This document shows positions 503 through 31,402 of a DNA stretch of 37,546 nucleotides, one piece after another (the first letter of the stretch is position 1; each line of letters starts with the position of its first letter). The translations under genes were made by a program, and so were the position numbers. The notes below the pieces were generated by a model, which ran no database searches, was not told the origin of the DNA, and worked only from the letters and a program-made list of their open reading frames with translations. Origin of the DNA: Candidatus Hadarchaeota archaeon (lineage in GTDB: Archaea > Hadarchaeota > Hadarchaeia > Hadarchaeales > Hadarchaeaceae); the NCBI GenBank assembly GCA_964564905.1, contig CAZMCI010000004.1:1-37546 (forward strand). Direction: 5' to 3'.

Positions 503-742
503 ATGGCCAAGAGATTGATGTTTGATGTCGTGATTCAAAAGGATGAAACGGGCGGGTATGTGGCGTTTGTTCCTTCCCTACTTGGGTGCCACACGCAAGG
601 CGAAACGCTCGAAGAGTTGATGAAAAACGTTGAAGAAGCGATCGAGCTCTACCTAGAAACCTTGGACGAGGAGGAGAAATCAGAAGTTCTCAAAATGGCT
701 CACTCAGTTGTAGGATTACAAAAAGTAGAGGTTCATGCCTAA
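503..742 (+). CDS. hicB: HicB-family antitoxin (UPF0150 fold)
   Basis: Motif GGYVAFVPSLLGCHTQGETLEELMKNVEEAIELYLE is typical of HicB. GGAGAG lies 4 nt upstream of ATG 503 (the ORF is open from GTG 488). TTTTATA at 462-468. Overlaps hicA by 8 nt. Confidence 0.8.
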   Translation: MAKRLMFDVVIQKDETGGYVAFVPSLLGCHTQGETLEELMKNVEEAIELYLETLDEEEKSEVLKMAHSVVGLQKVEVHA

Positions 743-6975: not shown

Positions 6976-8286
6976 TCACGCCCTTAAACTCTGACCGGGA
7001 AGAACCAGGGTTTCCAGGGTTCCTATGGAGTAATCCTCGTGAACCGCAGCTCTTGCCTGCGTCGGGTGGATGTTCAGCTTTATCTCCTTCGTCCTCCCGT
7101 GGCGTCCCCTGTTGACCACCTGGGCACTTATGATCCCAAGCATGTCCAGTTCGGAGATAAGATCACTTATCCGACGTCGCGTCAGGACATCCAGCCCGGT
7201 CTGATGGCAGAGATCTTGATACACTTCGTACACATCGCCGCTCACTATTCTTCGTGGGGTTCGCTCGGCGAGCAGCACGATACTGTACAGCACCAGCTTT
7301 GACTGCGTAGGCAGGGTTCGAATTATCTCCACCATTTTGTCCTGCTCGATTTTCTCGTAAGCGCGCCTTACATGTTCCACGGTGACGAGCTCCGCTCCAT
7401 CACGCTCCGCGAGTTCTCCTGCTACCCGGAGCATGTCCAAGGCCCTCCGGGCGTCTCCGTGCTCTCTGGCCGCATGAGCCGCACAGAGTTGTATCACTCC
7501 GTTCCCAAGGACGCCCTCCATGAAACTTATCCTAGCCCTCTTCTCCAGGATATCTTTCAACTGAAGCGCATTGTACGCCGGGAACACTATTTCCTCCTCG
7601 CTGAGGCTACTTCGGACGCGGGGATCGAGATATTCCATGAAGTTCGTGTCATTTGAAATTCCGACAACGGCCACTTTTGCGTTCTTCAGGTCCAGGTTCA
7701 TACGTGTCAGGAGATACAGGATCTCGTCGCCGCTCCTTTGAACGAGCTTGTCGACCTCGTCGAGTATTACCACAGCAAGCTGTCTGTCCTCGTCCAGAGC
7801 TCTAAAGAAACTGTGATAGACCTCATCCGTCGGCCACCCGGTCATGGGCACCCGCCTGGGGAGCCCGGCCGACTTCAAAAATTTTTCACCGCGGGTATCC
7901 TCCAGATTTCTGAGAAAAACGTCTGAAATTGTCGCGAGTATCCTGTACTGGGTGTTCACAATTTCGCAGTTCAGGTAAACCACTTTTACTTTCAGCGGTG
8001 CCCGGTCGCTGACCCTCTCCAGTTCCTTTGCCACGTATCTCACCGTTGCGGTTTTTCCCGTTCCAGGTTTGCCGTAAAGGAAGATGTTCGAGGGGGTTTC
8101 GCCGCGCAGGGGTGCTGCAAGTATCCGCGCTAGCTGGTGGATCTGCTCATCCCTGTGGGGCAACTCGTCAGGTGTATAGCTAGGGCGAAGGTATTCCCGA
8201 TTTTTGAATATTTGTTTCGTCTCCAGCAATGTGCTGAACAGGTTTTCCGGGCTCATGTTTTTCCACCTCCTCTCCAGATCTTTCAA
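6976..8286 (-). CDS. cdc6: Orc1/Cdc6 replication initiator
   Basis: Walker A YGKPGTGKT, Walker B ILDEVD, sensor motifs and a C-terminal winged helix. The true start may be Met11 (8256) or TTG 8229. Every possible start overlaps the upstream gene. Confidence 0.95.
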   Translation of the reverse strand: MKDLERRWKNMSPENLFSTLLETKQIFKNREYLRPSYTPDELPHRDEQIHQLARILAAPLRGETPSNIFLYGKPGTGKTATVRYVAKELERVSDRAPLKVKVVYLNCEIVNTQYRILATISDVFLRNLEDTRGEKFLKSAGLPRRVPMTGWPTDEVYHSFFRALDEDRQLAVVILDEVDKLVQRSGDEILYLLTRMNLDLKNAKVAVVGISNDTNFMEYLDPRVRSSLSEEEIVFPAYNALQLKDILEKRARISFMEGVLGNGVIQLCAAHAAREHGDARRALDMLRVAGELAERDGAELVTVEHVRRAYEKIEQDKMVEIIRTLPTQSKLVLYSIVLLAERTPRRIVSGDVYEVYQDLCHQTGLDVLTRRRISDLISELDMLGIISAQVVNRGRHGRTKEIKLNIHPTQARAAVHEDYSIGTLETLVLPGQSLRA

Positions 8287-8747: not shown

Positions 8748-11700
8748 CTATTTCACCGCCCTGCTGACCGTCTCCGGAGTTGGGGAATAGAGATATCCCC
8801 TCTTTTTCTCTTCTTCTATTACCCAATCCACAAATCCCTCTTTGATGCCCTCCGCCATGGCCTGTATCTTCACTTTTTCAATGGGCGCCGCACCCTCATA
8901 CTGCTCTTCCAGCTCTCTGATGATATCGAATACGCGCTGACGTTTCTCTCGCTGGGACTTTGGTATCCCGGTCATTATCAGATCCACATCGACAACGTTT
9001 GCTTCTGTGTCTATCCCCGCCTCCCTCAAGCTCGTCTTTATGAGGTTTATCGCCCTGTTCGCGTCCTCAACGGTCACACGGGTGCTGAGTCTCATCCTAG
9101 CGTTAGACTTTGCCAAACGTATGAGTGCTTCCAGCTGTCTGACCGTGATGGGCAGGGGGGCTCCCTCCGCCACGACCTTCCTCCAGTCGACAAAAAAGTC
9201 CTCTATCACTTTCGAGACTTTTTTATCCTCAATTTTTGGATCGATGTACTTCCGGGCATATATGATGATCTTGCGCAGGAACTCCGGATCAAACGGTGCC
9301 TTGACGACTTTTTTCGGAGCGGTATGCATCTGCAATACGTGCTGTGCCATGGAACGGTCATTATCGACCCGGGGTTCATCACGCAGGAGCAGCACCAGGT
9401 CGAACCTAGAAAGCAGCACCGGATCAAGCGCCAACTGCTGGGCCGGAGGAATATTCTTATCAAATCTTCCCAGCTTTGGATTGGTGGCCGCGAGGATCGC
9501 CGTGCGAGTATTGAGGGTCGCGACTATGCCTGCCTTGGCGACACTTATTGTGTTGTGCAATACCAGACCCTGGCTAATGAAGTTATGGGTTGGCTCAACT
9601 GTTACATCATAGACCCACTTCGTGCTCAACGTTCCGGAATTGGGCAGGATTTCAACCTTCGTGACCCTGAGCCATCTTAAATCACACAACTTTTCAAGAG
9701 ATTCTATTCTTTGAATGGATTCCTCCAGCTTTCGCGATAGCACCGAAATCAAGTTCGTCAACAATTTTTTCCGCTTTTCCTCTCCGTAACCTCCTCTCTC
9801 GGCGTAATCGATATTGCCCCGCTTCAAGCCCAGCAAACGGGCGACTTGTGCCTGTGAATAACCGAAAACTTGCCGAATTCCCTTCAAATTATTTGAGGTC
9901 TCGAGGACCTTTTTGAGAAACTGAAATCTTTTTCTGAGAATATTTAATCGACCCTGCACCACTCCACGGGTGATGCCATGACCGGAAGCCATGTGCTTCG
10001 CAAAATACCCATCGTAGCGCAGACCAGCTATCCGATATAAGTCGATGATTTCTTCGGCAAGCCCTGTGGGTAAAACATCGTGATATCTGGAAACTTTTTT
10101 GCTTTTTTCCGCCATCTGCCTTATTTTCTCGGCTCTGGGGTCACTTTGGTCCGCTAGTTCCTCTGAAAATTTTTGAAGCGAATCGCCTGTTATGTAAACC
10201 TTGTAGGAGTTGTTTGATCGATCCTCCAAGATGCGAGAGTTAATTGAGAGTTTGAGCAAAAGGTCCTGATAGTCTTCAGCCAGCCCACGGGAACTTGTCC
10301 GGTAACATATACCCGTGCTCTCAACGCTTCCATCGCCCAAAAACGCGGATCGAAGGAATTCTCTTGCTATTTCTCTGGATGCGCCCATGATCTTGGCCGG
10401 TACCCTCTTTGATGAAGCATGCGCTAAAATTTCCGGAAAGTTTTCTTCGAACCACCTGTACATTCTAGCCGAAACGGATCGCTGTCGGGTTATGCTGTCG
10501 CTTTCTCTTATTTGGATGCCCGGAGTGATCCTGAAGATATCCTCCATGAGCCGCTTCATCTCTTTTGATAATAAAGGATCGGAGTTCACGAAACCGATTT
10601 CGTTGGAAGGTTTGTATGCCCATCCCTCGGAGATTAAGAACCCCATGACCCTCGCAAGTTCAGGAGTCAAAACAGTTGGGATCTCGATGTCCTTTTCGGT
10701 GCGATGTCCTACTTCTACTGCGGGCAAGGGGACTGCCACAGAAGAATTTGGAACCATCTTCGGAGCTGGGACGAATAACCCTGGAGTCATCTCCCTGGCC
10801 GGAAGGGTGGAAACCTTGCCGTCCTTCCAGAGGAAAACCGGATGTTCGGGGGTAACCACCACGCTTCTGCCGTTAGAATAAGTCAATTTGACGAATTCTC
10901 CAGGTGCGATGTGGCGGCTGACCCTGTTTATCTTGGCCCTCACCACACCATTCTGGTCTAGTGTAAAAACTTGCATGTCCTGATTTAACGGTAATATTTC
11001 ACAATTCACCCCGTTGAGAACCCGGTCTTTGTGTTCTGCCATCATTTTGTCCACAAATTCACCTATTCGAACTTTTCTGCCGTTAGCTAAGAGTATCTCC
11101 ACGTGAGGGTGATAGCTCTGCTGTTCCATCGACTCTAAAATTGCGGCCGCTTCATCCTTGTTCATCTTTTCAAACTCATCTATGCTCGCCAGTCCGCCAT
11201 CTGCTATCACCAGAGCCCCGGCTTCGAGCCCCCATCCGCCACTCAGGTCGTCTCTAACCGCTGCAGCCGTGAGACCAGCCCCAGTCGATTTCATTCCCGA
11301 GGTGTACAGACCACGCGGAGCTACATTTGCGACCCACTTGAGTATCTGGCTTTTGGCTGTTCCGGGATCCCCACAAAGTAGAATATGAGTATCACCGCGA
11401 ATCCTAGTTCCATCCGGCAGAACCGTTGGATTGCACCCAAAAAGCTGAAGAGCAACAGCCTCCTTTATCGCCTCACAGCCATGGATCGCTGGAACCACCG
11501 ATTGGACTATCTTATTTCTAATCCATGGGTCCTTGGCGAGCTCCTTTATTTTTTTCTCGTCCTCCTCGGTTAATTCCGTTTCCTCCACACCTTTTTGTCG
11601 TACCTCCACGTGGTTCACGAACAATATCTTTCTAAAAGTCGTCCTACGTTCCCGCTTTTGTCTCTCCTGAAACACCCTCAAAACTCCGGTCAGGACGACG

Positions 11701-12317
11701 TGATTACCCGGAACAGCCTTATCGACGAAATCGTCCCTTATTATGCCGTCCAACTTCTGCGGCATTCTCCCCCCACGCAACTTTTCCGGTGGTTCCTGAA
11801 CGCATATGCTCTGCCAGTCACGGAACACCGTTCTCTCAATTATCAAATCGAACGCGCCTTTACGACGACAATTCGGGTTTTCACATGAAAGTGGTTGTCT
11901 GAAGAATTCTCCCGCCTGGAAAACCCTGTTCTCCTCGCCGCAGTACCTGCATTTGAATACGGCCTCCTTGGCCTCCGGTTTAACCTCGCTGGTACGGGTC
12001 ATTATGCCTTCCACTTGGATAAATTTGCCCACGTGTTCGGCGCGAATGTTGCGAATTTCTATGCTTTCCGGAAGCGACTTGACACGCAAACGCATGTCAC
12101 TTATCTTCGTTATCCCCTCGAGAATCGCGTCTGCAGTGTTGAAAAAATCCAGTGGTGAGTCAAGCAGACATTTTGCTAGATCCTTATCAAACTCAAGAAT
12201 ATCATCAAAGCTTACAACTAACGATTTTTGCCCGGCGGCGGTCCTCTTCCGTAACTCCTTGAGGATATTCTTCCTGTGGAGGAAACCCTCTACTCTCTCT
12301 TTAAGCACCGGTTCCAA
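8748..12317 (-). CDS. mcm: MCM replicative helicase interrupted by one intein (400-aa N-extein, 522-aa intein, 267-aa C-extein)
   Basis: Zn finger CRYCG..CENPNC, Walker A GDPGTAKS, Walker B SIDEFEKM, ..MEQQ/TISVAKAGI.. and arginine finger SRFDL. The extein total of 667 aa is a normal MCM length. Confidence 0.97.
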   Translation of the reverse strand: MEPVLKERVEGFLHRKNILKELRKRTAAGQKSLVVSFDDILEFDKDLAKCLLDSPLDFFNTADAILEGITKISDMRLRVKSLPESIEIRNIRAEHVGKFIQVEGIMTRTSEVKPEAKEAVFKCRYCGEENRVFQAGEFFRQPLSCENPNCRRKGAFDLIIERTVFRDWQSICVQEPPEKLRGGRMPQKLDGIIRDDFVDKAVPGNHVVLTGVLRVFQERQKRERRTTFRKILFVNHVEVRQKGVEETELTEEDEKKIKELAKDPWIRNKIVQSVVPAIHGCEAIKEAVALQLFGCNPTVLPDGTRIRGDTHILLCGDPGTAKSQILKWVANVAPRGLYTSGMKSTGAGLTAAAVRDDLSGGWGLEAGALVIADGGLASIDEFEKMNKDEAAAILESMEQQSYHPHVEILLANGRKVRIGEFVDKMMAEHKDRVLNGVNCEILPLNQDMQVFTLDQNGVVRAKINRVSRHIAPGEFVKLTYSNGRSVVVTPEHPVFLWKDGKVSTLPAREMTPGLFVPAPKMVPNSSVAVPLPAVEVGHRTEKDIEIPTVLTPELARVMGFLISEGWAYKPSNEIGFVNSDPLLSKEMKRLMEDIFRITPGIQIRESDSITRQRSVSARMYRWFEENFPEILAHASSKRVPAKIMGASREIAREFLRSAFLGDGSVESTGICYRTSSRGLAEDYQDLLLKLSINSRILEDRSNNSYKVYITGDSLQKFSEELADQSDPRAEKIRQMAEKSKKVSRYHDVLPTGLAEEIIDLYRIAGLRYDGYFAKHMASGHGITRGVVQGRLNILRKRFQFLKKVLETSNNLKGIRQVFGYSQAQVARLLGLKRGNIDYAERGGYGEEKRKKLLTNLISVLSRKLEESIQRIESLEKLCDLRWLRVTKVEILPNSGTLSTKWVYDVTVEPTHNFISQGLVLHNTISVAKAGIVATLNTRTAILAATNPKLGRFDKNIPPAQQLALDPVLLSRFDLVLLLRDEPRVDNDRSMAQHVLQMHTAPKKVVKAPFDPEFLRKIIIYARKYIDPKIEDKKVSKVIEDFFVDWRKVVAEGAPLPITVRQLEALIRLAKSNARMRLSTRVTVEDANRAINLIKTSLREAGIDTEANVVDVDLIMTGIPKSQREKRQRVFDIIRELEEQYEGAAPIEKVKIQAMAEGIKEGFVDWVIEEEKKRGYLYSPTPETVSRAVK
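9552..11117 (-). mobile_element. MCM intein with LAGLIDADG homing-endonuclease domain and an HTH-like insert
   Basis: Inserted in MEQQ|TISVAKAG. Starts with Ser (SYHPHVEILLANG) and ends VLHN, followed by Thr+1. LAGLIDADG blocks are LARVMGFLISEGWAY and REFLRSAFLGDGSV. An XRE-like stretch reads FGYSQAQVARLLGLKRGNIDYAERG. Confidence 0.9.
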
Positions 12318-12452
12318 TAATTCCAGCCTCCTGTCAGAATGGTGTTAAAGAGAAGAACCGCGCCACTTAAAAACGAGACCGTGAAAAATTTGCACTTATT
12401 GCTTAAATTTGAAGAAACATTTATGATTTTATTACTTATATTTACTGCAATA

Positions 12453-12473
12453 TTGTTTAACCACAGGGGGAGG
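12453..12473 (-). repeat. Degenerate ORB-like box
   Basis: TTGTTTAACCACAGGGGGAGG resembles TTGTTTCCACTGGAGAG at 22476-22492. Confidence 0.35.
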
Positions 12474-12572
12474 CCAGCACATCCATCGTTGGACATATTA
12501 ACATCTCTGTTTAACGGTAGACGCATTTTTATCCCTGTTTAGACCTGGATGAGCTATTTTTTTTATTATTTT

Positions 12573-12590
12573 GAGGAGGGGTCACCGAAA
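12573..12590 (+). repeat. Conserved spacer box GAGGAGGGGTCACCGAAA (copy 1)
   Basis: Near-identical to 22265-22285 (GGAGGAGGGGGGTCGCCGAAA). Both copies sit in AT-rich spacers. Confidence 0.5.
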
Positions 12591-12690
12591 ACAGCTTAGA
12601 TCCAATTTTACAGCTTTAATCGTCTTTCTTTTAAGAATGTTGGATTTTTGACCCATTTTTCAAAAAAAAGATACCATGAGGCTTATTTCG

Positions 12691-12718
12691 AGTGGAAACA
12701 CAAGAAAACAGTGGAAAC
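12691..12718 (+). repeat. Two direct mini-ORB-like boxes (AGTGGAAAC x2)
   Basis: cgAGTGGAAACa at 12691-12699 and caGTGGAAACg at 12710-12718. The archaeal ORB core is TCCAGTGGAAAC. Confidence 0.45.
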
Positions 12719-12777
12719 GATGGTAGAAAAACTTCGATGAGTCTACTAAACTTGAAATTTAAAATTTTGCAGCGGAT

Positions 12778-19186: not shown

Positions 19187-19474
19187 GTGCGTCGGGGGGG
19201 CGATCCGGAGAGGTCTCTAGGGTTGGTCTTGGTGGATCCCACTGGTTGGTGTCTTTGCGAGTTAGGCCGGCTCGTGAAGATACCAAACAGCAGGCTGTCA
19301 AGATCGGCCCGAATGCTCTCGAATGATTGCGGCGCGGAAAACTCATAAGAGTTCTCCGCACGATCCATGAAGGATCGGAGCGATGTGGTTCGGCGGGCTG
19401 CCCAAAAGGTGGTCCTGACGGGCTACATCGACCGTGATCATAGAGGTGCTGTGGCCCCAACCTCGGCGCATTTT
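19187..19474 (+). ncRNA. Unclassified ~288-nt structured RNA gene candidate
   Basis: A GC-rich island in an AT-rich spacer. The 5' UGCGUCGGGG (19188-19197) pairs with the 3' CCUCGGCGCA (19461-19470), including two G-U pairs valid only on the + strand. Internal hairpins are GCGGAAAACUC-AUAA-GAGUUCUCCGC (19333-19358) and GAUCC-AUGAA-GGAUC (19362-19376). TTTT at 19471-19474. Overlapping ORFs look non-coding. Confidence 0.5.
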
Positions 19475-21172: not shown

Positions 21173-21367
21173 TTAATGCACTGTCCTCCCAAAATTATTC
21201 ATCTCTTTTGTGTCTACAACAATTCCAAATTGTTTTTTGCACTGCGGACACAGTACCGTATCCCACACCTTCCCTGGAGCAATTAACACTAGTTCAGAAC
21301 GTGGGATCCATGAACCACAATGAGGACATTTTTCTTGTTTTTTCATCAGCATCCCAATCGTGATCAT
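21173..21367 (-). CDS. Small zinc-ribbon protein
   Basis: 64 aa with CPHCG-x24-CPQC. Packed between the PriS-like gene and ogg. Confidence 0.5.
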   Translation of the reverse strand: MITIGMLMKKQEKCPHCGSWIPRSELVLIAPGKVWDTVLCPQCKKQFGIVVDTKEMNNFGRTVH

Positions 21368-21398: not shown

Positions 21399-22220
21399 TT
21401 ATACTTCTGCTGGTTTGGCCTCTAGCTGTCTGGTGCGCCATGGGTGGAGGTATCCTATTTGAGCACTCATGGGTGCTGATCCAAACTCCCAGTCAAATGA
21501 CTTCACGTTGCTTGGGCTGGCATCCAGTACGGAAAATGAATTTATTCGCTTTGGATCTACTGGAACCGAAACCAATCCCGTTTCGGGATTTAGGCTCATT
21601 GGCGCTAGTAGCAGGCCTCGCCTAGCCCGAAGTTCGGAGAGGAGGCAGGTTTTTCCTTCCTGTATGATCTCGATCGATGCACCTTTGTTTTTTATCTCAA
21701 TGTTGTGGGAATATTTGCAAATCTGGCTCACAATTGAATCTGTTAGCTCCCTCTGTAAATCATCTAGAACCTCCAGTTGTCCCATCCAGAGTTCATGAGG
21801 GATTGTGTCAAGCGGAATGATAAGATCGAACCCTAGGTCTCCAGAATATTTTACCCATGGGACGATCCCGATGTCCTCAAACGCCTTTACCACCAAAGCT
21901 GCGATATGTTTAACGAACCCGAGTCCTCCATGCTTTGTCCTTAACGTCCAGACTAGGTCTCTTCCTATTGGTTTGTCGAAATCCAACCCATCATACCGCC
22001 AGTACGAACAGTAAAATGCTGAGGCCCCTTGGCTAACTGCTTGAGTTATTGCAGAGGGTGTATCCAAAATAATCGGATGTTTTTCATCCTGGTCATTCAC
22101 ATAACGCTGTAAGCTCTTGATGTGTTTGTTAAAAATGGCACACTCTCTAAATTCATTGTTCCTACTGGGATTCGCGAAGCCCAAGATCGTCCGTTTAACG
22201 TCGATACGGTTATAATACAT
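21399..22220 (-). CDS. PriS-like (archaeo-eukaryotic primase fold) protein with non-canonical catalytic motifs
   Basis: NEFRECAIF (REF-like), FYCSYWRY and GRDLVWTLRTKH sit where PriS has DLxFDxDxDH. YSGDLGFDLIIP sits where PriS has SGxRGxH. LRARRGLLLAPMSLNPETGLVSVPV matches RLxRxPxSxHxKTGL. GGAGGA lies upstream of the ATG. Confidence 0.55.
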   Translation of the reverse strand: MYYNRIDVKRTILGFANPSRNNEFRECAIFNKHIKSLQRYVNDQDEKHPIILDTPSAITQAVSQGASAFYCSYWRYDGLDFDKPIGRDLVWTLRTKHGGLGFVKHIAALVVKAFEDIGIVPWVKYSGDLGFDLIIPLDTIPHELWMGQLEVLDDLQRELTDSIVSQICKYSHNIEIKNKGASIEIIQEGKTCLLSELRARRGLLLAPMSLNPETGLVSVPVDPKRINSFSVLDASPSNVKSFDWEFGSAPMSAQIGYLHPWRTRQLEAKPAEV

Positions 22221-22264
22221 TGTTCCTCCGAGTGGACTTTCATACTGATATTTTAAGCGAATTT

Positions 22265-22285
22265 GGAGGAGGGGGGTCGCCGAAA
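22265..22285 (+). repeat. Conserved spacer box GGAGGAGGGGGGTCGCCGAAA (copy 2)
   Basis: Matches 12573-12590. The adjacent hexamer AGCTGT is the reverse complement of ACAGCT, which follows copy 1. Confidence 0.5.
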
Positions 22286-22463
22286 GCTGTTTTTCATTAG
22301 AAGCTTATTTTTCGTGTTTTTTCGTGATTCAAGCTGGGAATTTTCTTTATTCTAAACAAACACAGGTTTATTTTACTTTTACACCAAAAAATGACTTATC
22401 TAGTTTCATTATCTGTTTAAAACACCATTTTTTCTTATTTGTATATCGGAAGCTACGGTGATC

Positions 22464-22488
22464 GGGGAACCCCTTTGTTTCCACTGGA
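22464..22488 (-). repeat. Origin recognition box (ORB)-like element
   Basis: Minus strand reads TCCAGTGGAAACAAAGGGGTTCCCC. This is the ORB core TCCAGTGGAAAC plus the downstream G-rich element known from Pyrococcus and Sulfolobus origins. Confidence 0.55.
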
Positions 22489-22538
22489 GAGATATATTAC
22501 ATAACCAAACAATTTTATGTTATATTTACATAATAAAC

Positions 22539-22913
22539 ATGATGCCAACAGAGTTTGATAAAGGTTGGGTAGTATGTTTTATCGAAAATAAAGGCGCGTT
22601 TACTGTAAATAAGATTAAAATTACCAAAAAAACAAAAAACGGCGTCAAAAAATACACGTATAACAATCCTGCGTTTTATGTGGTTTCGAGAGACAGACTT
22701 CCACTGGAAATAGTCAAAAATACACTTGGAATGGGAAAAATAAGACATTATGGTGGTATTTTTCAATTGGAGATAAGAAAAAAAAGCGAACTCCTCAGAT
22801 TGGTGGGGTTTTTGGATGGGAATCTTAGGTCCGAAAAATCAAAACGGTTTGACTTATGGAAGAAACAGGTTCTGGAGTGGAAAACAAGGGCGTGGGGGGC
22901 CGGTGTCGGGTAA
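22539..22913 (+). CDS. Free-standing single-motif LAGLIDADG homing-endonuclease-like protein
   Basis: DKGWVVCFIENKGAFTV (LAGLIDADG-type helix), LEIVKNTLGMGKI and LLRLVGFLDGNLRSEKSKRFDLWKK are typical of the family. Start taken at ATGATG 22539 (the ORF is open from 22458). ATATATTA at 22491-22498. Confidence 0.6.
   Translation: MMPTEFDKGWVVCFIENKGAFTVNKIKITKKTKNGVKKYTYNNPAFYVVSRDRLPLEIVKNTLGMGKIRHYGGIFQLEIRKKSELLRLVGFLDGNLRSEKSKRFDLWKKQVLEWKTRAWGAGVG
22699..22710. repeat. ORB-core-like near-palindrome inside the LAGLIDADG ORF
   Basis: TTCCACTGGAAA; the reverse complement reads TTTCCAGTGGAA. Confidence 0.3.
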
Positions 22914-22987
22914 ACTGATAAAGGCTTTTAGAGCATGGGGGATATCCTTTCAGTTGGAGTGGTAGAACGAGCAACGCTTTTGATCTG

Positions 22988-23962
22988 GTGGCCCGTGGAA
23001 CATCGGAGATCGTCACCGAGGCCGAGTTACGGGAATTACTGAAAAAAAAGGGATTCGTTACTTATTGCGGGTATGAGCCCTCAGGTAAGATTCATTTCGG
23101 CCATTTTTTGACCGTCAGAAAGTTAATGGACTTCCAAAAGGCCGGCGCGAGGTGTCTGGTGCTGTTTGCTGATCTGCATGCGTATCTGAATCACAAAGGG
23201 GATTTAGAAGAGATAAGGAGGACAGCAGAGTACAACAAACACTGTTTCATCGCGCTGGGTCTTGATGCAAAGAGAACAGAGTTTTTGTTGGGGTCTAGTT
23301 TTCAGCTTAAGCCTGAATTCATGATGGATGTGTTCCGGATGGCCACAGGCACCACCCTGTCGCGCGCCCGACGTTCTATGGCGGAGATAGCTAAACACGC
23401 AGAGGATCCAGACGTAGCGCAGGTGCTTTACCCAATAATGCAGGCTGCAGACATGGCGCGACTTGGAATAGATGTGGCTGTCGGGGGAAACGACCAACGC
23501 AAGGTCCATATGATTGCTCGTGAAAAATTACCAGCACTGGGATACAAAAAACCCGTCTGTGTGCACTTGCCTCTTTTGCACGGAATAGATGGTTCAGCAA
23601 AGATGTCATCAAGTAAAGGTAACTTCATAGCAATAGACGATGAACCTTCGGTCATAAAGAAAAAGATAATGAAAGCGTTTTGCCCTCCAAGACAAGTGAT
23701 GGATAACCCAATCATTGAATATGCGGAGCACGTGGTCCTGTCCTCTCAGGATAAGCTTGAGATAAAAAGACAGGCACGGCACGGTGGGCCACTTGAGCTG
23801 ACAAGAGCCGAGGAACTAAAGAACATCTACGCAACAGGAGAACTTCACCCAGCAGATCTTAAAACATCTGTTGCGGAAGCGCTTATTGATGTGCTTGCAC
23901 CTGTCCGGGAGTATTTCGAGGAACACCCAGAGGTCAACCCACAAAATTCTCGGATAATTTAA
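22988..23962 (+). CDS. tyrS: Tyrosyl-tRNA synthetase (archaeal short form)
   Basis: HIGH-type motif GKIHFGH, KMSKS-type motif KMSSSKGN. 324 aa. GTG start. Confidence 0.93.
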   Translation: MARGTSEIVTEAELRELLKKKGFVTYCGYEPSGKIHFGHFLTVRKLMDFQKAGARCLVLFADLHAYLNHKGDLEEIRRTAEYNKHCFIALGLDAKRTEFLLGSSFQLKPEFMMDVFRMATGTTLSRARRSMAEIAKHAEDPDVAQVLYPIMQAADMARLGIDVAVGGNDQRKVHMIAREKLPALGYKKPVCVHLPLLHGIDGSAKMSSSKGNFIAIDDEPSVIKKKIMKAFCPPRQVMDNPIIEYAEHVVLSSQDKLEIKRQARHGGPLELTRAEELKNIYATGELHPADLKTSVAEALIDVLAPVREYFEEHPEVNPQNSRII

Positions 23963-26904: not shown

Positions 26905-28578
26905 TTATAGAGATGCAATAGTAAAGAAATACCAGATGTAATTCTCTCCGATGCTGTTCCATGCAAGGTCCATCGCTTCTTCTCCGATCGTCACACCATA
27001 TACAGTTTCAGGCATCAGGTTTTCTGTAGGGGTGAAGATAAGCGTGTTTTCGCTCCAGCTAAACTCGCCATCAACCTCAGGAAAAACTGAGAAAGCAGAT
27101 TGTGTGGCTGTTTTGCTCATTCTTTCGCTAAAAGTCACGGTTATAGAAGTAGAAACTGGCACATTCTCTTCTCCATTTTCTGGATGGGTAGATACCACAC
27201 TAGGAGTAATGTTATCCTTCACCCGGGAGGATATCCATTCTTGAGGATTTTCGACGCCCTTTCCACTACAAGGCGGGTATTGATTCGGCAGGTTTGTTTC
27301 AGTCCATTTTTTGAAAAATTCTTGATTTTGAAGAGCTGCGTCCTTTTCTTTGGCACTTTTGATGGCTTCCTGCCACAATTTTGCCCATGAGATGTCTCCT
27401 TTTTTAAAGTTCTCAGCCAAAGCCTCCATATCTTCGACCAATCCACTTACGGCTTCTAACCCCATGTCATCAGGGTTTAGATCTGGGCTGGCATCACCAT
27501 TTTCCACAGCCTCACGGTATTTTCCGAAAGTGGTGTTTTTGTGGTCCAAATCCCCCCACCCCATGCTGTCATTATCGGTGGAAGTATAGATTATCTCAAC
27601 TTTTTTATCCCATTTTTTCAGGGCTTCTATCCATTTGCCGGAATAACAAGCAGCCACGGTTACAGAGATATGCACACCATTTTCGAATTTGCATACCCAT
27701 TTGGAAAATTTCTCAGGAGTAAGCATGAATCCATCTACCATTTCAATAGCTCCATCGTTTTCCCTTCCGTGCCCAGTTATGTAAATTGAAAAGTTTTCAC
27801 ACGGCTTCAGCAGCTTTGAGAGACTCTCCATAACATTTTCAATATTGTTTTCTGTGGGCCTATTTTCTTCATCACCCCAAAGCTCGAGATGTGTGACGTC
27901 GAACCCAAAAACGTTTTCCATTAGATAGTGCCATTCGCCAGCCGATGTTGGGATGTCTTGATTGAAACCCGGCTCACCCTCGATTATCAGGGCTCGGTTT
28001 CTACTGGTGCTATTATTACCTGAACCGGTTAGATTTGGAGTCCTGACGAAACTTGCCATAACAGTAGAGTGGTTTTCGATGTACGTTGAGTACACCCAAT
28101 ACTGTTTGTTCCAGTATTCTTCCGATGATCCCCATAAGTCTGTCCTGTTGAGTTGTGGCCACCAGCTTTCTATCTTGATCTCATATTCTCCGGTCAAAGC
28201 GTTAATGAACACGTATCTAGTTGGGTGTGAAAACATAGCGTATGGGAAGTCGTTTATCCAGAAAAACCAAGTGTTCTCTTCTATAGTGTAAACATGTTCC
28301 GGAGCACCGTGCGAGGAGATGTTGTCTCCGGCTTTCAACATTTGTGGCCATAGAAGAGCGACTAGATCGTGATTCAGTTCTCCAGGCTTTATAACGTTTT
28401 CAAGCAGGATTTGCGTGGCATTTTCTGCAGTGAGCAGAGGTACAGCGATTTTCTCCTTTACCGGTTTTGACATTATAATGTAACTTATTCCCATAACCAC
28501 AACCGAGAGTACAATAATTCCCACACACAAGACAACGAGTCTCACCAGTTCACACTCATCAATCAATCTTGTGACCAC
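26905..28578 (-). CDS. Membrane-anchored extracytoplasmic protein with a clan-CD (legumain/caspase-like) Cys-peptidase-like core and a C-terminal Ig-like domain
   Basis: N-terminal TM LVVLCVGIIVLSVVVMGISYII. His-Cys dyad context IYITGHG ... VTVAACYSGKW. The C-terminal VVSTHPENGEENVPVSTSITVTFSERM..TVYGVTI resembles an SbsA/Big-type Ig domain. Confidence 0.5.
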   Translation of the reverse strand: MVTRLIDECELVRLVVLCVGIIVLSVVVMGISYIIMSKPVKEKIAVPLLTAENATQILLENVIKPGELNHDLVALLWPQMLKAGDNISSHGAPEHVYTIEENTWFFWINDFPYAMFSHPTRYVFINALTGEYEIKIESWWPQLNRTDLWGSSEEYWNKQYWVYSTYIENHSTVMASFVRTPNLTGSGNNSTSRNRALIIEGEPGFNQDIPTSAGEWHYLMENVFGFDVTHLELWGDEENRPTENNIENVMESLSKLLKPCENFSIYITGHGRENDGAIEMVDGFMLTPEKFSKWVCKFENGVHISVTVAACYSGKWIEALKKWDKKVEIIYTSTDNDSMGWGDLDHKNTTFGKYREAVENGDASPDLNPDDMGLEAVSGLVEDMEALAENFKKGDISWAKLWQEAIKSAKEKDAALQNQEFFKKWTETNLPNQYPPCSGKGVENPQEWISSRVKDNITPSVVSTHPENGEENVPVSTSITVTFSERMSKTATQSAFSVFPEVDGEFSWSENTLIFTPTENLMPETVYGVTIGEEAMDLAWNSIGENYIWYFFTIASL

Positions 28579-29614: not shown

Positions 29615-31402
29615 ATGCAGAAATTAAAACGCGAAACGGTGTTGATTTTGCTAGGTTTGTTTTTAGCTTCGTCGTTGATGTTTTCGTTTGTTCAAGAGGA
29701 GCCAACGCTTGGACTCACGGATGAGATAAAGGTGGATCAAGTGGGGTATCTGCCGAGTCACAAAAAACTCGCGTTTGTGACAGGTTCAACCGTAAAACCG
29801 GGAGCAAAGTTTTATGTAAAAGAGGCGAATACAGGCACCACGGTTTACACAGGGATGTTGAGTACTCAATCGTTTGAGTGTACCGATTCCGGAGATACCA
29901 TTTATTCCGCAGATTTTTCTGACCTCGCTGCTCCGGGCAGCTACTATCTCGAGGTGGAAGGGGTTGGCAGATCATTTAATTTTGATATTCAAGATAACAT
30001 CTATAACGAGCTTTTTTATCACGCAATGCGTTTCTTCTACTATCAAAGATGCGGGATGGATTTGGAGGCTCCGTATGCCGGGAAGTGGACCCATAAAGCC
30101 TGTCATCTCAATGATGCTGTGATTCATTCAAGTGCCGTTTCGGAGAAGAGACCAGAGGGAACTTTGGTCAGCTCTCCCGGCGGCTGGCACGACGCTGGCG
30201 ACTATGGAAAAAAGATCGTGAACGCTGGAATAACCGTGGCAACGCTGCTACGATTGTACGAGATGTTTCCCGAGAGGGTTGGGACGATCAACTTGAACAT
30301 ACCCGAGAGCGCGAACTCCATGCCCGACATTTTGGATGAGGTCAAGTACGAACTGGACTGGATGCTCACCATGCAGAGACCGGATGGGGCGGTGTACCAC
30401 AATATAGTAACCTCATCTTTTGCCTCCATGGGGACTGCACCTGAAAATGATTCAGCCACCAGATATTTTGGGCCAGTTTCCTCCTGTGCCACAGCGGATT
30501 TTGCAGGGGCAATGGCCATGGCAGCGAGGATCTACGAGAATTTTGATCCTCTTTTTGCGCAAAATTGTTTGGACGCGGCAGAAAAAGCTTGGGAGCATCT
30601 GGAAAATCACCCAAATATCTTCCCCTCTGGTGGTTACACCGATCCGGAGGGAATACACGGAACTGGGGGTTATTATGATACAGATGACAGCGACGAGCGA
30701 TTCTGGGCAGCAGCAGAATTATTTAGGACAACCGGGAAAACAAAGTACAACGAATACGTGAAGGCAAATTACAGTCGTTGGGGAGGAGTACATTATCCAG
30801 AGTCTTGGCGGTACGTTAATAATTTGGGGATGTTTGCTTATGCCTTTGCTACTCAGCCTGAAGTCGATGTTGATCTCCAAAATCAAATCAGGTCGAGCAT
30901 TGTCGATTACGCTAATAGCACCCTAAGTCGCATAACATCGACCGGTTATCGTGTCGCGCTAAACTCGGACGATTATTATTGGGGCTCAAACTCCATAGCT
31001 ATGTACTTTGCCGCAGGGTTGATAATCGCCAACGAGATACAGCCGAAACAAGAGTTCATCGAGGGAGCGCTCGACCAGCTACACTATATTTTGGGAAGGA
31101 ACGCGCTAAATCATTCTTTTGTGACTGGCATGGGGGAGAATTGTACAAGGTACCCATGGCACACTTGGATTTGCAATTACCCCGGTGACCCCCCGCCGGG
31201 TTTGCTTTCCGGCGGGCCCAACAAATACAAAGCTCCCTACGACAAAATACTATGTGAAATCATCGACTCCGGAGCACCGCCAGCCAAATGTTATGCGGAC
31301 AATTGCGTGATCCAAGGCACGATAGGCACATGGGCTTCAAATGAGCCTTGTATAAGTTATAACGCACCACTAGTTTTCGTTGCAGGGTACTTTTTGACTT
31401 GA
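29615..31402 (+). CDS. Secreted glycoside hydrolase family 9 (endoglucanase-like) with N-terminal Ig-like domain
   Basis: Signal/TM LILLGLFLASSLMFSFV. CelD_N-like IKVDQVGYLPSHKKLAFV. GH9 signatures GGWHDAGDYGKK, SFVTGMGENCTRYPWH and NEPCISYNAPLVFVAG. Confidence 0.85.
   Translation: MQKLKRETVLILLGLFLASSLMFSFVQEEPTLGLTDEIKVDQVGYLPSHKKLAFVTGSTVKPGAKFYVKEANTGTTVYTGMLSTQSFECTDSGDTIYSADFSDLAAPGSYYLEVEGVGRSFNFDIQDNIYNELFYHAMRFFYYQRCGMDLEAPYAGKWTHKACHLNDAVIHSSAVSEKRPEGTLVSSPGGWHDAGDYGKKIVNAGITVATLLRLYEMFPERVGTINLNIPESANSMPDILDEVKYELDWMLTMQRPDGAVYHNIVTSSFASMGTAPENDSATRYFGPVSSCATADFAGAMAMAARIYENFDPLFAQNCLDAAEKAWEHLENHPNIFPSGGYTDPEGIHGTGGYYDTDDSDERFWAAAELFRTTGKTKYNEYVKANYSRWGGVHYPESWRYVNNLGMFAYAFATQPEVDVDLQNQIRSSIVDYANSTLSRITSTGYRVALNSDDYYWGSNSIAMYFAAGLIIANEIQPKQEFIEGALDQLHYILGRNALNHSFVTGMGENCTRYPWHTWICNYPGDPPPGLLSGGPNKYKAPYDKILCEIIDSGAPPAKCYADNCVIQGTIGTWASNEPCISYNAPLVFVAGYFLT

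What the first reader, a model, noticed from the sequence alone, without database searches (positions are those of the whole stretch)
22221..22538. Second origin-like spacer only 10 kb away, carrying a near-consensus full ORB box
- The minus strand of 22464-22488 reads TCCAGTGGAAACAAAGGGGTTCCCC. This is a 12/12 ORB core followed by the G-string typical of long ORBs, and a better match than anything next to orc1.
- It lies in a 318-bp AT-rich divergent spacer. To the left are the PriS-like/Zn-ribbon/ogg genes; to the right is a LAGLIDADG ORF containing another ORB-core-like palindrome (22699-22710).
- Gene orientation in the window flips around 19-22.5 kb: nearly all minus to the left, mostly plus to the right. 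Genes are co-oriented away from an origin in just this way.

Either this is the real oriC, or the two spacers form a dual origin, or this is the replication module of an integrated element.
Basis: partly seen in the sequence, partly recalled or inferred. Interest (0 to 1): 0.65.

Follow-up and report, generated by a model that had tools for sequence, protein, structure and literature searches.

The report
Replication origin of a Hadarchaeota chromosome
The near-perfect Orc1-binding box is real and is one half of a conserved inverted pair that most likely marks the chromosomal replication origin of an uncultured Hadarchaeota archaeon, here with a small nuclease-dead LAGLIDADG gene lying between the two boxes.

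Summary
The minus strand of 22464-22489 is a full-length origin recognition box (ORB). It scores 35.3 of 36.0 bits against a matrix built only from other genomes.

They also missed that the palindromic core at 22698-22711 lies midway between the two. The three boxes frame the LAGLIDADG ORF (22539-22913).

The window comes from a Hadarchaeota metagenome contig. In 611 kb from 41 related loci plus the window, 52 of 55 long-ORB matches fall at this one locus, upstream of a conserved primase-like gene.

Sister clades lack the LAGLIDADG gene. There the inverted ORBs flank 75-190 bp of very AT-rich DNA, which is a textbook archaeal oriC.

Third-codon GC skew changes sign at the ORB pair whichever way the genes point, and genes run away from it on both sides.

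The MCM-upstream spacer has only tandem mini-ORBs beside a shared promoter motif, and the skew does not switch there. No mobile-element signature was found.

Verdict: most likely the chromosomal oriC. It is a known kind of origin with an unusual layout: it is not next to orc1, and a conserved coding sequence carries two of its Orc1 boxes. No experiment supports this yet.

The parts
22464..22489 (-). ORB1, the proximal long origin recognition box: CTCCAGTGGAAACAAAGGGGTTCCCC. The dyad end faces the LAGLIDADG gene. The G-string end faces the primase-like gene.
   Evidence: Read directly from the sequence. It is the only 12/12 core match. It scores 35.3 of 36.0 bits with a matrix from other genomes. 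Orthologous boxes are found in about 30 Hadarchaeota loci.
22870..22895 (+). ORB2, the distal inverted ORB variant: TTCTGGAGTGGAAAACAAGGGCGTGG. It lies inside the last codons of the LAGLIDADG ORF (VLEWKTRAW).
   Evidence: It forms an inverted repeat with ORB1 (I3). On its own it scores 16.8-20.4 bits, no better than the best shuffle. However, it is found at the same place in 15 orthologous loci. Its synonymous sites are frozen: Arg is always AGG, and the third base of the variable codon is A in 14 of 15.
22698..22711 (.). Central palindromic mini-ORB, CTTCCACTGGAAAT, inside the LAGLIDADG coding sequence (codons L-P-L-E-I).
   Evidence: Scores 18-19 bits on both strands with the mini-ORB matrix. 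In L014, L019 and L032 it has the same spacing to the flanking ORBs, about 176 and 220 bp. Third-position variability is low in these codons.
22490..22538 (.). AT-rich core (GC 0.16) between ORB1 and the LAGLIDADG start codon. It is the candidate site of first melting and also holds that gene's TATA-like promoter. It contains the conserved element TTATGTTAT (complement of the GTAWCATAA-type motif, ATAACATAA in this window) about 25 bp from the ORB dyad.
   Evidence: GC content. It is part of the least stable DNA in the window. The motif lies at the same distance from the ORB in both Hadarchaeota clades.
22539..22913 (+). LAGLIDADG-fold gene (124 aa) lying between the two ORBs. Probably nuclease-dead: its motif reads CFIENKG where active enzymes have GFIEAEG or GFVDGEG.
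   Evidence: Pfam PF00961, E = 1.3e-6. Codon-position entropies of 0.84, 0.71 and 1.32 show purifying selection on a protein. AlphaFold model pLDDT 89. Foldseek best matches are I-TnaI, I-Vdi141I, I-CeuI and I-CreI. Motif comparison with active enzymes. The family is restricted to Hadarchaeota.
22290..22463 (.). AT-rich stretch (GC 0.28) on the G-string side of ORB1. Its length varies between lineages, so it is probably not part of the conserved origin core.
   Evidence: 22338-22537 is the least stable 200 bp of the window, z = 3.6. The stretch is absent in L018, L024, L027, L028 and L032, where the ORB abuts the promoter motif.
22270..22289 (-). Promoter-proximal motif CAGCTTTCGGCGACCCCCCT of the primase-like gene, followed by GCTTAAAATA (BRE/TATA-like).
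   Evidence: A matrix scan places it 69-80 bp upstream of the primase-like gene in nearly all loci. This includes divergent lineages that have no ORB there.
21399..22220 (-). Conserved Hadarchaeota primase-polymerase (AEP) fold gene. It is the anchor gene next to the origin.
   Evidence: 165 homologs; every one that carries a source name is labelled Hadarchaeota or Hadesarchaea. Weak LigD Prim-Pol and PriS matches. Foldseek matches Prim-PolC and the LigD polymerase domain on a pLDDT-70 model.
22988..23962 (+). Class I tRNA synthetase (W/Y family, tyrosyl-type). It is the conserved neighbour on the other side of the ORB pair.
   Evidence: Pfam PF00579, E = 1.4e-53. It is the neighbour in most related loci.
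6976..8286 (-). Orc1/Cdc6 initiator of the Orc1-1 type, inside an MCM-GINS-Orc1-DP1-HAD-DP2 gene string. The true start is probably downstream of 8286, because the ORF overlaps the GINS gene.
   Evidence: Pfam Cdc6_C, lid and AAA domains. Best solved relatives are Sso Orc1-1 (2qby_A, E = 3.5e-106) and A. pernix ORC1 (2v1u, E = 4e-98). NCBIfam NF001625 scores 587 bits against a cut-off of 501.
12687..12718 (+). The other spacer. It holds two direct tandem mini-ORBs, TTCGAGTGGAAAC-N6-AACAGTGGAAAC, about 90 bp from the promoter motif of the MCM operon. It is a probable Orc1-responsive regulatory cluster or an accessory Orc1 site, not an inverted ORB pair.
   Evidence: It is conserved 6.4-9.5 kb from the ORB pair in many loci. 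No long ORB is found there in any locus. The skew does not switch there.
12575..12594 (-). Second copy of the promoter-proximal motif (CTGTTTTCGGTGACCCCTCC), upstream of the MCM operon.
   Evidence: It is present upstream of the MCM operon in 13 loci.

Best explanation
This is the chromosomal replication origin (oriC) of a Hadarchaeota archaeon, of the ORB/Orc1 type. Which steps are shown and which are inferred is marked below.

**Proposed mechanism (inferred).**
- Monomers of the Orc1-1-type initiator encoded at 6976-8286 bind with fixed polarity to ORB1 (22464-22489, minus strand) and to the inverted ORB2 (22870-22895, plus strand). They probably also bind the palindromic mini-ORB midway between them (22698-22711).
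- By analogy with the solved Orc1-ORB complexes, the winged-helix domain reads the TCCAGTGGA dyad and the AAA+ domain reads the GGGG string.
- The dyad ends face each other, so two MCM hexamers would be loaded onto the AT-rich DNA between the boxes.
- Melting would start in the least stable stretch, which abuts ORB1 (22490-22590). Forks would then leave in both directions, co-oriented with most genes.

**The unusual part.**
- In this clade the DNA between the boxes is not empty. It holds a 124-aa, probably nuclease-dead LAGLIDADG gene.
- The coding sequence of that gene also encodes ORB2 and the central mini-ORB.

**Shown here:**
- The boxes and their phylum-wide conservation.
- The canonical architecture in sister clades.
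- The local skew switch.
- The presence of the initiator gene.
- The dual constraint on the coding sequence.

**Inferred:** Orc1 binding, MCM loading, the melting site, and firing in vivo.
For: 1. **ORB1 is a near-maximal match.** It scores 35.3 of 36.0 bits, against 17.2 for the best of 200 shuffles. It is the only 12/12 core in the window.

2. **Long ORBs occur almost only at this locus.** In 611 kb from 41 Hadarchaeota loci plus the window, 52 of 55 long-ORB matches lie 98-928 bp upstream of the primase-like gene. They form an inverted pair.

3. **Sister clades show a textbook oriC.** Where the LAGLIDADG gene is absent, the two ORBs are 97-215 bp apart, start to start. The 75-190 bp of DNA between them is extremely AT-rich and carries a conserved palindrome. 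This matches the ORB2-DUE-ORB3 layout described for Sulfolobus oriC1 (PMC12141716).

4. **The skew switches at the pair.** The cumulative GC-skew minimum falls within about 0.5 kb of the ORB pair in 12 of 21 loci, including the window.
   - Third-codon skew on the top strand is negative on one side and positive on the other, for both co-directional and head-on genes.
   - For head-on genes the values are -0.035 against +0.099 (Mann-Whitney p = 3e-4).
   - The predicted leading strand exceeds the lagging strand in 17 of 21 loci (Wilcoxon p = 0.001).

5. **Genes point away from the pair on both sides**.

6. **The least stable 200 bp of the window is 22338-22537**.

7. **A cognate initiator is present.** Its closest solved relatives are the two Orc1 proteins crystallised on ORB DNA.

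8. **The same motif marks origins elsewhere.** The 19-mer CCAGTGGAAAYNAAGGGGT lies within a few hundred bp of an orc1 gene in 30 of 120 metagenome stretches from diverse archaea.

9. **ORB2 and the central box are constrained at the DNA level.** Their synonymous sites are frozen inside an otherwise freely drifting coding sequence.

10. **The ORB pair is separable from the neighbouring promoter.** Divergent lineages keep the primase-like gene and its promoter motif without an ORB. In one of them (L041) the ORB pair lies 9.7 kb away, next to a different gene.
Against: - No binding, marker-frequency or initiation-point data exist.
- Only 10-22 kb on either side of the site could be examined. A global skew curve and a genome-wide ORB census were not possible.
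- ORB2 in this window is weak when taken alone: 16.8 bits, equal to the best shuffle.
- The 380-bp gap between the ORBs is two to four times the canonical distance, and a transcribed gene fills it.
- orc1 is 14 kb away rather than adjacent.
- Both the ORB pair and the MCM-upstream mini-ORBs lie beside the same promoter motif. An Orc1-as-regulator reading therefore cannot be dismissed.
- The 21 loci in the skew test are related genomes, so the p-values overstate independence.
- In Thermococcus kodakarensis the ORB-bearing origin and Cdc6 are reported to be dispensable (PMC5663688, title and abstract seen). Presence of an origin does not prove it is used.
Confidence: 0.78

Rival explanations
1. 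Dual or extended origin. Both the ORB pair (22.5 kb) and the MCM-upstream spacer (12.3-12.8 kb) fire, or they cooperate as one Orc1-bound zone about 10 kb long. The nearest precedent is the oriC plus dp1 ORB clusters of Pyrococcus.
For: - The tandem mini-ORBs at 12687-12718 are conserved 6.4-9.5 kb from the ORB pair in many Hadarchaeota.
- That spacer is AT-rich, with GC 0.35 and several low-stability windows.
- In Pyrococcus a second ORB/mini-ORB cluster a few kb from oriC is bound by Cdc6 in vivo (PMC1904270).
Against: - No long ORB and no inverted pair is found at that spacer in any of the roughly 40 loci.
- Cumulative skew runs straight through it without an inflection, and the minimum lies at the ORB pair.
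- The mini-ORBs lie about 90-120 bp upstream of a promoter motif shared with the primase-like gene. That position fits a regulatory role for the operon that contains orc1 itself.
Confidence: 0.12
2. The boxes are not an origin but Orc1-dependent operators. On this reading, ORB1 and ORB2 are binding sites through which an Orc1/Cdc6 paralog controls the divergent promoters of the primase-like operon and the LAGLIDADG gene.
For: - ORB1 lies about 25 bp from the LAGLIDADG TATA-like element. In compact genomes it directly abuts the promoter motif of the primase-like gene.
- The same combination of promoter motif and mini-ORBs occurs upstream of the MCM operon.
- Non-initiator Orc1 paralogs that act as transcription regulators are known in Sulfolobales (PMC9738581, abstract seen).
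Against: - The ORB-to-promoter distance varies from 0 to about 200 bp, while the ORB-to-ORB geometry is fixed within a clade.
- Lineages that keep the gene and its promoter motif lack the ORB.
- Sister clades show inverted ORBs around a gene-free AT-rich core.
- The skew switch is independent of gene orientation.
- The same 19-mer marks orc1-adjacent origins elsewhere.
Confidence: 0.07
3. The locus is the replication module of an integrated plasmid or virus, consisting of an AEP primase-polymerase, a homing endonuclease and ORBs captured by the chromosome.
For: - AEP primase-polymerases are typical replicases of archaeal plasmids and viruses (established knowledge).
- The region has lower GC (0.38-0.46) than the PolD end of the window (0.56).
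- A LAGLIDADG gene is present.
Against: - The primase-like gene has 165 homologs. Every one that carries a source name is labelled Hadarchaeota or Hadesarchaea, and where the flanks could be read the neighbourhood is largely conserved: a tyrosyl-tRNA synthetase on one side, and MCM-operon elements (promoter motif, mini-ORBs) downstream.
- It has no relatives in IMG/VR viral contigs, PLSDB plasmids or GenBank phages.
- The window contains no integrase, transposase or flanking tRNA.
- The LAGLIDADG family has about 20 members, all at this one locus.
- The primase-like gene shares a promoter motif with the MCM operon.
Confidence: 0.02

Closest known systems
Sulfolobus/Saccharolobus oriC1 (ORB2-DUE-ORB3 bound by Orc1-1) and Aeropyrum pernix oriC1
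   Same: - Long ORBs consisting of a TCCA-N-TGGA dyad followed by a GGGG(T) string.
- Two boxes in inverted orientation around AT-rich DNA. In the Hadarchaeota clades without the LAGLIDADG gene the spacing (97-215 bp) is comparable to the 130-bp Sulfolobus unit (PMC12141716).
- A conserved short motif inside the AT-rich core, comparable in position to the Sulfolobus ucm.
- The initiator in the window is most similar to Sso Orc1-1 and A. pernix ORC1.
   Different: - The origin is not next to orc1, which lies 14 kb away inside an MCM-GINS-Orc1-PolD gene string.
- In the window's clade the boxes are about 405 bp apart, start to start.
- The intervening DNA encodes a conserved protein, and a third, palindromic box lies midway between the two ORBs.
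- The core motif (GTAWCATAA, or the palindrome TGTTACAATAGTAACA) was not shown to be related to the ucm.
Pyrococcus/Thermococcales oriC with its second ORB cluster inside the dp1 gene
   Same: - An inverted pair of long ORBs plus mini-ORBs.
- A second cluster of mini-ORBs a few kb away near replication genes.
- ORB elements embedded in a protein-coding sequence and still bound by Cdc6 in vivo (PMC1904270).
- Origins that overlap small predicted ORFs (PMC4640148).
   Different: - In Pyrococcus the G-string lies about 8 nt further from the core (TCCAGTGGAAATGAAACTCTGGGGG), and oriC abuts cdc6.
- In the window, the ORF lying inside the origin is a real, conserved, folded protein gene under purifying selection, not an orphan prediction.
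Methanothermobacter-type arrays of 13-bp mini-ORBs
   Same: The MCM-upstream spacer carries two to three direct tandem mini-ORBs with a 10- or 19-bp period. Such arrays bind Cdc6-1 cooperatively in that organism (as summarised in PMC1904270).
   Different: Only two or three copies are present. They are not flanked by inverted boxes, they lie next to a promoter motif, and the skew does not switch there.
Homodimeric LAGLIDADG homing endonucleases (I-TnaI, I-Vdi141I, I-CeuI, I-CreI)
   Same: - A single alpha-beta-beta-alpha-beta-beta-alpha domain of about 120 aa.
- TM-score about 0.7 to these enzymes.
- Pfam LAGLIDADG_1 above its cut-off.
   Different: - The catalytic acidic residue at the end of the LAGLIDADG helix is Lys in the window. 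Across 15 orthologs it is Lys or Arg in 9, Glu in 4, and Cys or Ala in 2.
- The gene is not in an intron or intein, is not sporadic, and lies at one fixed locus in one phylum.

Membership tests
Archaeal ORB/Orc1-type replication origin (oriC1 type) | Origin recognition boxes matching the dyad plus G-string consensus | tested here: met
   ORB1 scores 35.3 of 36.0 bits and has a 12/12 core. The same 19-mer lies beside orc1 genes in 30 of 120 metagenome stretches.
Archaeal ORB/Orc1-type replication origin (oriC1 type) | At least two ORBs in inverted orientation flanking an AT-rich unwinding region | tested here: met
   An inverted pair lies at 22464-22489(-) and 22870-22895(+), and the DNA between has GC 0.33. 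In this clade the intervening DNA is mostly coding. In sister clades the pair flanks 75-190 bp of non-coding AT-rich DNA.
Archaeal ORB/Orc1-type replication origin (oriC1 type) | Cognate Orc1/Cdc6 initiator encoded in the genome, usually adjacent to the origin | tested here: inconclusive
   An Orc1-1-type gene is present in the window. However, it is 14 kb away, not adjacent. Adjacency is common but not universal: two Thermococcus species have oriC 349-453 kb from cdc6 (PMC4640148).
Archaeal ORB/Orc1-type replication origin (oriC1 type) | Switch of strand compositional skew and of gene orientation at the site | tested here: met
   The test is local only, covering 10-22 kb on either side. The cumulative skew minimum falls at the pair. 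Third-codon skew changes sign independently of gene direction.
Archaeal ORB/Orc1-type replication origin (oriC1 type) | Conservation of the element at the syntenic position in related genomes | tested here: met
   52 of 55 long-ORB matches in 611 kb fall at this locus.
Archaeal ORB/Orc1-type replication origin (oriC1 type) | Specific binding by Orc1/Cdc6 (footprint, EMSA or ChIP) | not testable with these tools
   Requires purified protein or cells.
Archaeal ORB/Orc1-type replication origin (oriC1 type) | Replication initiates there in vivo (marker-frequency peak, initiation-point mapping or ARS activity) | not testable with these tools
   No read-depth data or cultures are available, and the organism is known only from metagenomes.
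LAGLIDADG homing endonuclease (functional, mobile) | LAGLIDADG fold | tested here: met
   Model pLDDT is 89. Foldseek matches I-TnaI, I-Vdi141I and I-CreI with TM about 0.7. Pfam PF00961 scores 29.7 bits against a cut-off of 23.1.
LAGLIDADG homing endonuclease (functional, mobile) | Catalytic Asp or Glu at the end of the LAGLIDADG helix | tested here: not met
   The window has CFIENKG where I-Vdi141I has GFIEAEG and I-TnaI has GFVDGEG. The position is Lys or Arg in 9 of 15 orthologs.
LAGLIDADG homing endonuclease (functional, mobile) | Sporadic, mobile distribution (in an intron or intein, or free-standing at a homing site) | tested here: not met
   About 20 homologs were found, and every one that carries a source name is labelled Hadarchaeota or Hadesarchaea. 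Where locus tags or fetched loci show the position (four tag pairs, 17 loci), the gene lies at this one locus next to the primase-like gene. The exhaustive search shows a sharp drop to generic two-domain enzymes.
Integrated plasmid or virus replication module | Integrase or att sites, sporadic presence, relatives on mobile elements | tested here: not met
   No integrase or nearby tRNA was found. The neighbouring genes recur in conserved order across the phylum. No relatives exist in viral, plasmid or phage collections.

The most novel reading that the evidence does not exclude
The origin of this Hadarchaeota clade has captured a homing-endonuclease gene that is now a fixed, nuclease-dead DNA-binding protein.
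- Its coding sequence doubles as two of the origin's Orc1-binding sites.
- Its product would be an origin-specific accessory factor. The unrelated 187-aa protein encoded beside the ORB pair in sister clades would play the same part.
- The role would be comparable to that of UBP at the Sulfolobus ucm.
- The two genes are mutually exclusive across the phylum, which would then reflect non-orthologous replacement of an origin factor.
Probability: 0.2. Interest if true: 0.75.

Novelty: new variant of a known kind. Interest (0 to 1): 0.55.

Why it matters
- **A first origin candidate for the phylum.** Hadarchaeota are known only from metagenomes, and I found no paper describing their replication origin. 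This locus gives a concrete, testable oriC for the phylum. It also provides an anchor for orienting assemblies and for growth-rate estimates from read depth.
- **orc1 adjacency is not a safe search rule.** Here the ORBs lie between a tRNA synthetase gene and a primase-like gene, 14 kb from orc1.
- **An overlapping code.** The conserved LAGLIDADG gene inside the ORB pair carries Orc1 boxes written into its codons. It is a clean natural case of replication-initiator sites and protein sequence constraining the same bases.
- **Two uncharacterised proteins to test.** The LAGLIDADG protein and the 187-aa protein in sister clades are candidate origin-associated factors.

Tried and rejected
**Known RNAs.** Rfam searches (gathering thresholds on the whole window; E <= 1 locally) found no known RNA in or near the spacer. 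The only hit was tRNA-Ser at 1024-1109.

**Mobile-element origin.** Viral, plasmid and phage searches with the primase-like protein found nothing.

**Further ORB-like words.** Those at 22761-22773 and 22948-22959 were rejected. Their codons drift freely among orthologs.

**The AT-rich stretch 22290-22463 as the unwinding element.**
- I considered it because it is the least stable DNA in the window.
- I set it aside as non-core because it is missing in several genomes where the ORB abuts the promoter motif.

**Direction of evolution (LAGLIDADG insertion or loss).**
- A neighbour-joining tree places the 187-aa state both basally and nested among LAGLIDADG-bearing lineages.
- The only remnant similarity in LAGLIDADG-less loci is confined to ORB2 itself.
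- The question is left open.

**The 187-aa protein.** It has no Pfam, NCBIfam or PDB-sequence match. It could not be folded because it is not encoded in the window.

**Whole-genome skew and ORB census.** These were not possible.

**Canonical ORB polarity.** I could not confirm from the papers I read which end of an ORB faces the unwinding region in known origins. I therefore report only the arrangement seen here: dyads inward, G-strings outward.

**Literature.** Searches for Hadesarchaea or Hadarchaeota origins, and for LAGLIDADG together with ORB, returned nothing relevant.
Full report
**Observation.**
- The minus strand of 22464-22488 reads TCCAGTGGAAACAAAGGGGTTCCCC.
- It is the only perfect match to the 12-nt ORB core in the window. 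About 0.0045 such matches are expected by chance.
- I built a 21-nt matrix only from ORBs of other genomes, leaving out the window and its closest relative. The box scores 35.3 of a possible 36.0 bits, and the best score in 200 shuffles was 17.2.
- The spacer 22221-22538 has GC 0.33, against 0.50 for the window. It separates two divergent genes.

**Context.** The window is a metagenome contig of a Hadarchaeota (Hadesarchaea) archaeon. Its gene map, reading left to right, is:
- A tRNA-Ser gene.
- A minus-strand string of PolD DP2, a HAD hydrolase, DP1, Orc1/Cdc6, GINS and an intein-bearing MCM.
- A 460-bp spacer at 12318-12777.
- Amino-acid metabolism genes.
- ogg, a 64-aa zinc ribbon and a 273-aa primase-like gene (21399-22220, minus strand).
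- The spacer in question.
- On the plus strand, a 124-aa LAGLIDADG ORF (22539-22913), a tyrosyl-type tRNA synthetase, a ParA/Mrp ATPase and metabolic genes.
- No integrase, transposase or virus-like gene.

- ORB1 has an inverted partner 380 bp away: TTCTGGAGTGGAAAACAAGGGCGTGG at 22870-22895.
- The unit is therefore ORB1, a 49-bp stretch of GC 0.16, then the LAGLIDADG ORF with a mini-ORB in its middle and ORB2 in its last codons.
- The dyad ends of the two long boxes face inward and the G-strings face outward.

**Comparative evidence.** The primase-like protein has 165 homologs, and every one that carries a source name is labelled Hadarchaeota or Hadesarchaea. I used it to fetch 44 genome loci.
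- *Long ORBs are confined to this locus.* A 26-nt ORB matrix found 55 matches at 14 bits or more in 611 kb. Of these, 52 lie 98-928 bp upstream of the primase-like gene, as a proximal box plus an inverted distal box. The three exceptions are in one divergent lineage (L041). There the pair lies 9.7 kb away, beside a different gene.
- *Two architectures exist.*
  - In 15 loci, including the window, the boxes start 391-418 bp apart and the LAGLIDADG gene lies between them.
  - In at least six others they start 97-215 bp apart. The DNA between them is 75-190 bp of extremely AT-rich, gene-free sequence carrying a conserved palindrome (TGTTACAATAGTAWCA or TTTGTTACATATGTAACAAA). An unrelated 187-aa ORF starts just outside the proximal box.
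  - The second form is the textbook archaeal origin. It matches Sulfolobus oriC1, where inverted ORB2 and ORB3 flank an AT-rich unwinding element with an essential motif midway (PMC12141716).
- *A shared core motif.* When loci are anchored on the proximal ORB, both clades show a GTAWCATAA-type element about 25 bp from the dyad.

**The LAGLIDADG gene is a real gene.**
- *Coding signature.* Fifteen orthologs share a median 52% amino-acid identity. Codon-position entropies are 0.84, 0.71 and 1.32, the signature of purifying selection on a protein.
- *Fold.* The AlphaFold model is confident (pLDDT 89) and has the alpha-beta-beta-alpha-beta-beta-alpha LAGLIDADG fold. Its best structural matches are the homodimeric enzymes I-TnaI, I-Vdi141I, I-CeuI and I-CreI.
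- *Catalytic residue.* Active relatives read GFIEAEG or GFVDGEG. The window reads CFIENKG, so the catalytic acid is replaced by lysine. Across orthologs that position is Lys or Arg in 9 of 15.
- *Distribution.* The family is tiny. The indexed search found about 20 proteins, and all that carry a source name are labelled Hadarchaeota or Hadesarchaea. Four have locus tags adjacent to the primase-like gene. The exhaustive search found seven representatives before a sharp drop to generic two-domain endonucleases.
- *Conclusion.* It is a fixed, vertically inherited and probably nuclease-dead LAGLIDADG protein, not a mobile homing endonuclease.

**An overlapping code.** Within the otherwise drifting coding sequence, the codons that spell ORB2 are frozen at synonymous sites.
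- The arginine is AGG in 15 of 15 orthologs, whereas other conserved arginines use five different codons.
- The preceding codon varies in amino acid (T, I, S, G, A, L, Q, R) but keeps A as its third base in 14 of 15.
- The E/Q codon is always GAG or CAG.
- The central mini-ORB codons also show low third-position variability.
- The DNA is therefore constrained as Orc1-box sequence on top of the protein constraint.
- There is a precedent: an ORB cluster bound by Cdc6 in vivo lies inside the dp1 gene of Pyrococcus (PMC1904270).

**Skew and gene orientation.**
- In the window the cumulative GC skew falls steadily from about 1.5 kb to 22 kb and rises afterwards. It shows no inflection at the MCM-upstream spacer.
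- Across 21 loci with long flanks, the minimum lies within about 0.5 kb of the ORB pair in 12.
- To separate replication from transcription effects, I measured third-codon skew gene by gene.
  - On one side the top strand is C-rich for co-directional genes (-0.076) and for head-on genes (-0.035).
  - On the other side it is G-rich for both (+0.094 and +0.099).
  - Head-on genes alone differ between the sides (Mann-Whitney p = 3e-4).
  - The predicted leading strand exceeds the lagging strand in 17 of 21 loci (Wilcoxon p = 0.001).
  - The loci are related genomes, so these p-values are optimistic.
- Genes point away from the pair on both sides: 84% and 96% of long-ORF bases in the window.
- The least stable 200 bp of the whole window is 22338-22537.

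**Initiator.** The Orc1 in the window is most similar to Sso Orc1-1 (2qby_A, E = 3.5e-106) and A. pernix ORC1 (2v1u, E = 4e-98). These are the two proteins solved on ORB DNA. It also passes the NCBIfam ORC1 equivalog cut-off.

- Thirty of them carry an Orc1 homolog, usually within a few hundred bp. This word therefore marks orc1-adjacent origins in many archaea.
- Many of the remaining hits may be chance, given the size of the collection.

**The other spacer.** It carries two direct tandem mini-ORBs (12687-12718), and related genomes have two or three copies with a 10- or 19-bp period.
- No locus has a long ORB or an inverted pair there.
- The mini-ORBs lie about 90-120 bp upstream of a 20-nt motif, ATACTTTCGGYGACCYCYCT, followed by an A-run and a TATA-like box.
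- The same motif lies 69-80 bp upstream of the primase-like gene in nearly every locus and upstream of the MCM operon in 13 loci.
- I read the other spacer as the promoter region of the MCM-GINS-Orc1-PolD string with Orc1 sites attached, that is, feedback control or an accessory Orc1 cluster. A weak second origin is not excluded.

**Integrated element.** This reading fails on every test available.
- The flanking genes recur in conserved order across the phylum.
- The primase-like protein has no relatives in viral contigs, plasmids or phages.
- There are no integration hallmarks.

**Mechanism proposed.**
1. Orc1 monomers bind ORB1 and ORB2 with opposite polarity, and perhaps also the central box.
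2. MCM is loaded onto the AT-rich DNA between them.
3. Melting begins beside ORB1, in 22490-22590.
4. Forks leave in both directions.

The sequence anatomy, its conservation, the skew switch and the presence of the initiator gene are shown. Binding, loading, melting and use in vivo are inferred. The role of the LAGLIDADG protein is unknown. The bolder reading is that it is an origin accessory factor, and that the mutually exclusive 187-aa protein of sister clades is another. I rate that reading at about 0.2.

**Novelty and limits.** This is a known kind of system, an ORB/Orc1 origin, in a phylum where no origin has been described in the literature I could search. Its layout is unusual:
- It is not next to orc1.
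- A conserved protein gene lies inside the ORB pair.
- Orc1 boxes are written into that gene's codons.

Everything rests on sequence analysis. Only 10-22 kb on either side of the site could be examined. In at least one related order, an ORB-bearing origin is reported to be dispensable (PMC5663688).

Noticed in passing
window 19187-19470 (+): The ORF-poor gap between 18777 and 19652 contains a GC-rich segment of about 285 nt. It is conserved at 70-77% nucleotide identity in more than 20 Hadarchaeota loci, with indels that are not multiples of three. A consensus fold has 92 pairs, 31 of them with compensatory changes. Shuffled controls gave 16.3 +/- 2.6 such pairs and slid controls gave 5-14; 95.8% of cells are paired. 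The 5' and 3' ends pair, a TATA-like box precedes the segment and a T-run follows it. There is no Rfam 15 match at E <= 1 in the window or in four orthologous loci. It is a candidate unknown or very divergent structured RNA.
   Followed up: partly
window 22270-22289 (-) and 12575-12594 (-); L004-L041: A 20-nt motif, ATACTTTCGGYGACCYCYCT, is followed by an A-run and GCTTAAAA. It lies 69-80 bp upstream of the primase-like gene in nearly all Hadarchaeota loci, and a second copy lies upstream of the MCM-GINS-Orc1-PolD string in 13 loci. It is a candidate operator or promoter element of a replication-gene regulon.
   Followed up: partly
L004:9337-9897, L036:9324-9887, L033:9316-9885, L113:12167-12709 (-) and others: In Hadarchaeota clades that lack the LAGLIDADG gene, a conserved 187-aa ORF (SFD..F.G....FYR..G...PH..LGKSV.A.P motif) starts about 25 bp outside the proximal ORB. 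It has no Pfam, NCBIfam or PDB-sequence match. It never co-occurs with the LAGLIDADG gene within the loci. It also accompanies the displaced ORB pair in L041 and appears in a distant metagenome contig with the order synthetase-ORB-p187.
   Followed up: partly
L004, L006, L008, L013, L033, L034, L036 etc., 25-40 bp on the dyad side of the proximal ORB: A conserved palindrome (TGTTACAATAGTAWCA or TTTGTTACATATGTAACAAA) lies inside the AT-rich core between the ORBs. A second copy lies near the 187-aa ORF start in L031 and L036. Only the half-site GTAACATAA survives in the LAGLIDADG clade. It may be a binding site for a dimeric origin or promoter factor.
   Followed up: partly
window 21399-22220 (-) and 21173-21367 (-): The phylum-wide primase-like protein has an AEP fold, with Foldseek matches to Prim-PolC and the LigD polymerase domain (TM 0.35-0.46 on a pLDDT-70 model). 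Its alignment consensus and invariant columns show no obvious DxD catalytic motif: the invariant residues include D87, L88 and W90, not a second acid. A 64-aa four-cysteine zinc ribbon follows it. It may be a non-canonical or inactivated primase paralog kept next to the origin.
   Followed up: partly
window 8748-12317 (-): The MCM gene carries an intein with a LAGLIDADG_3 endonuclease domain, inserted in the P-loop region. It is unrelated to the small LAGLIDADG_1 gene at the origin.
   Followed up: no
window 29615-31402 (+), 26905-28578 (-), 488-742 (+): The window encodes a GH9 cellulase with a CelD_N domain and a Big_5-domain protein in an archaeal genome. It also encodes a HicB-like antitoxin at its left end.
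   Followed up: no
L047, L065-L068, L071, L085, L132 (metagenome stretches): Several low-GC contigs carry two direct copies of the long ORB about 60 bp apart, immediately upstream of an orc1 homolog. These are presumably origins of another archaeal lineage with a tandem rather than an inverted arrangement.
   Followed up: no
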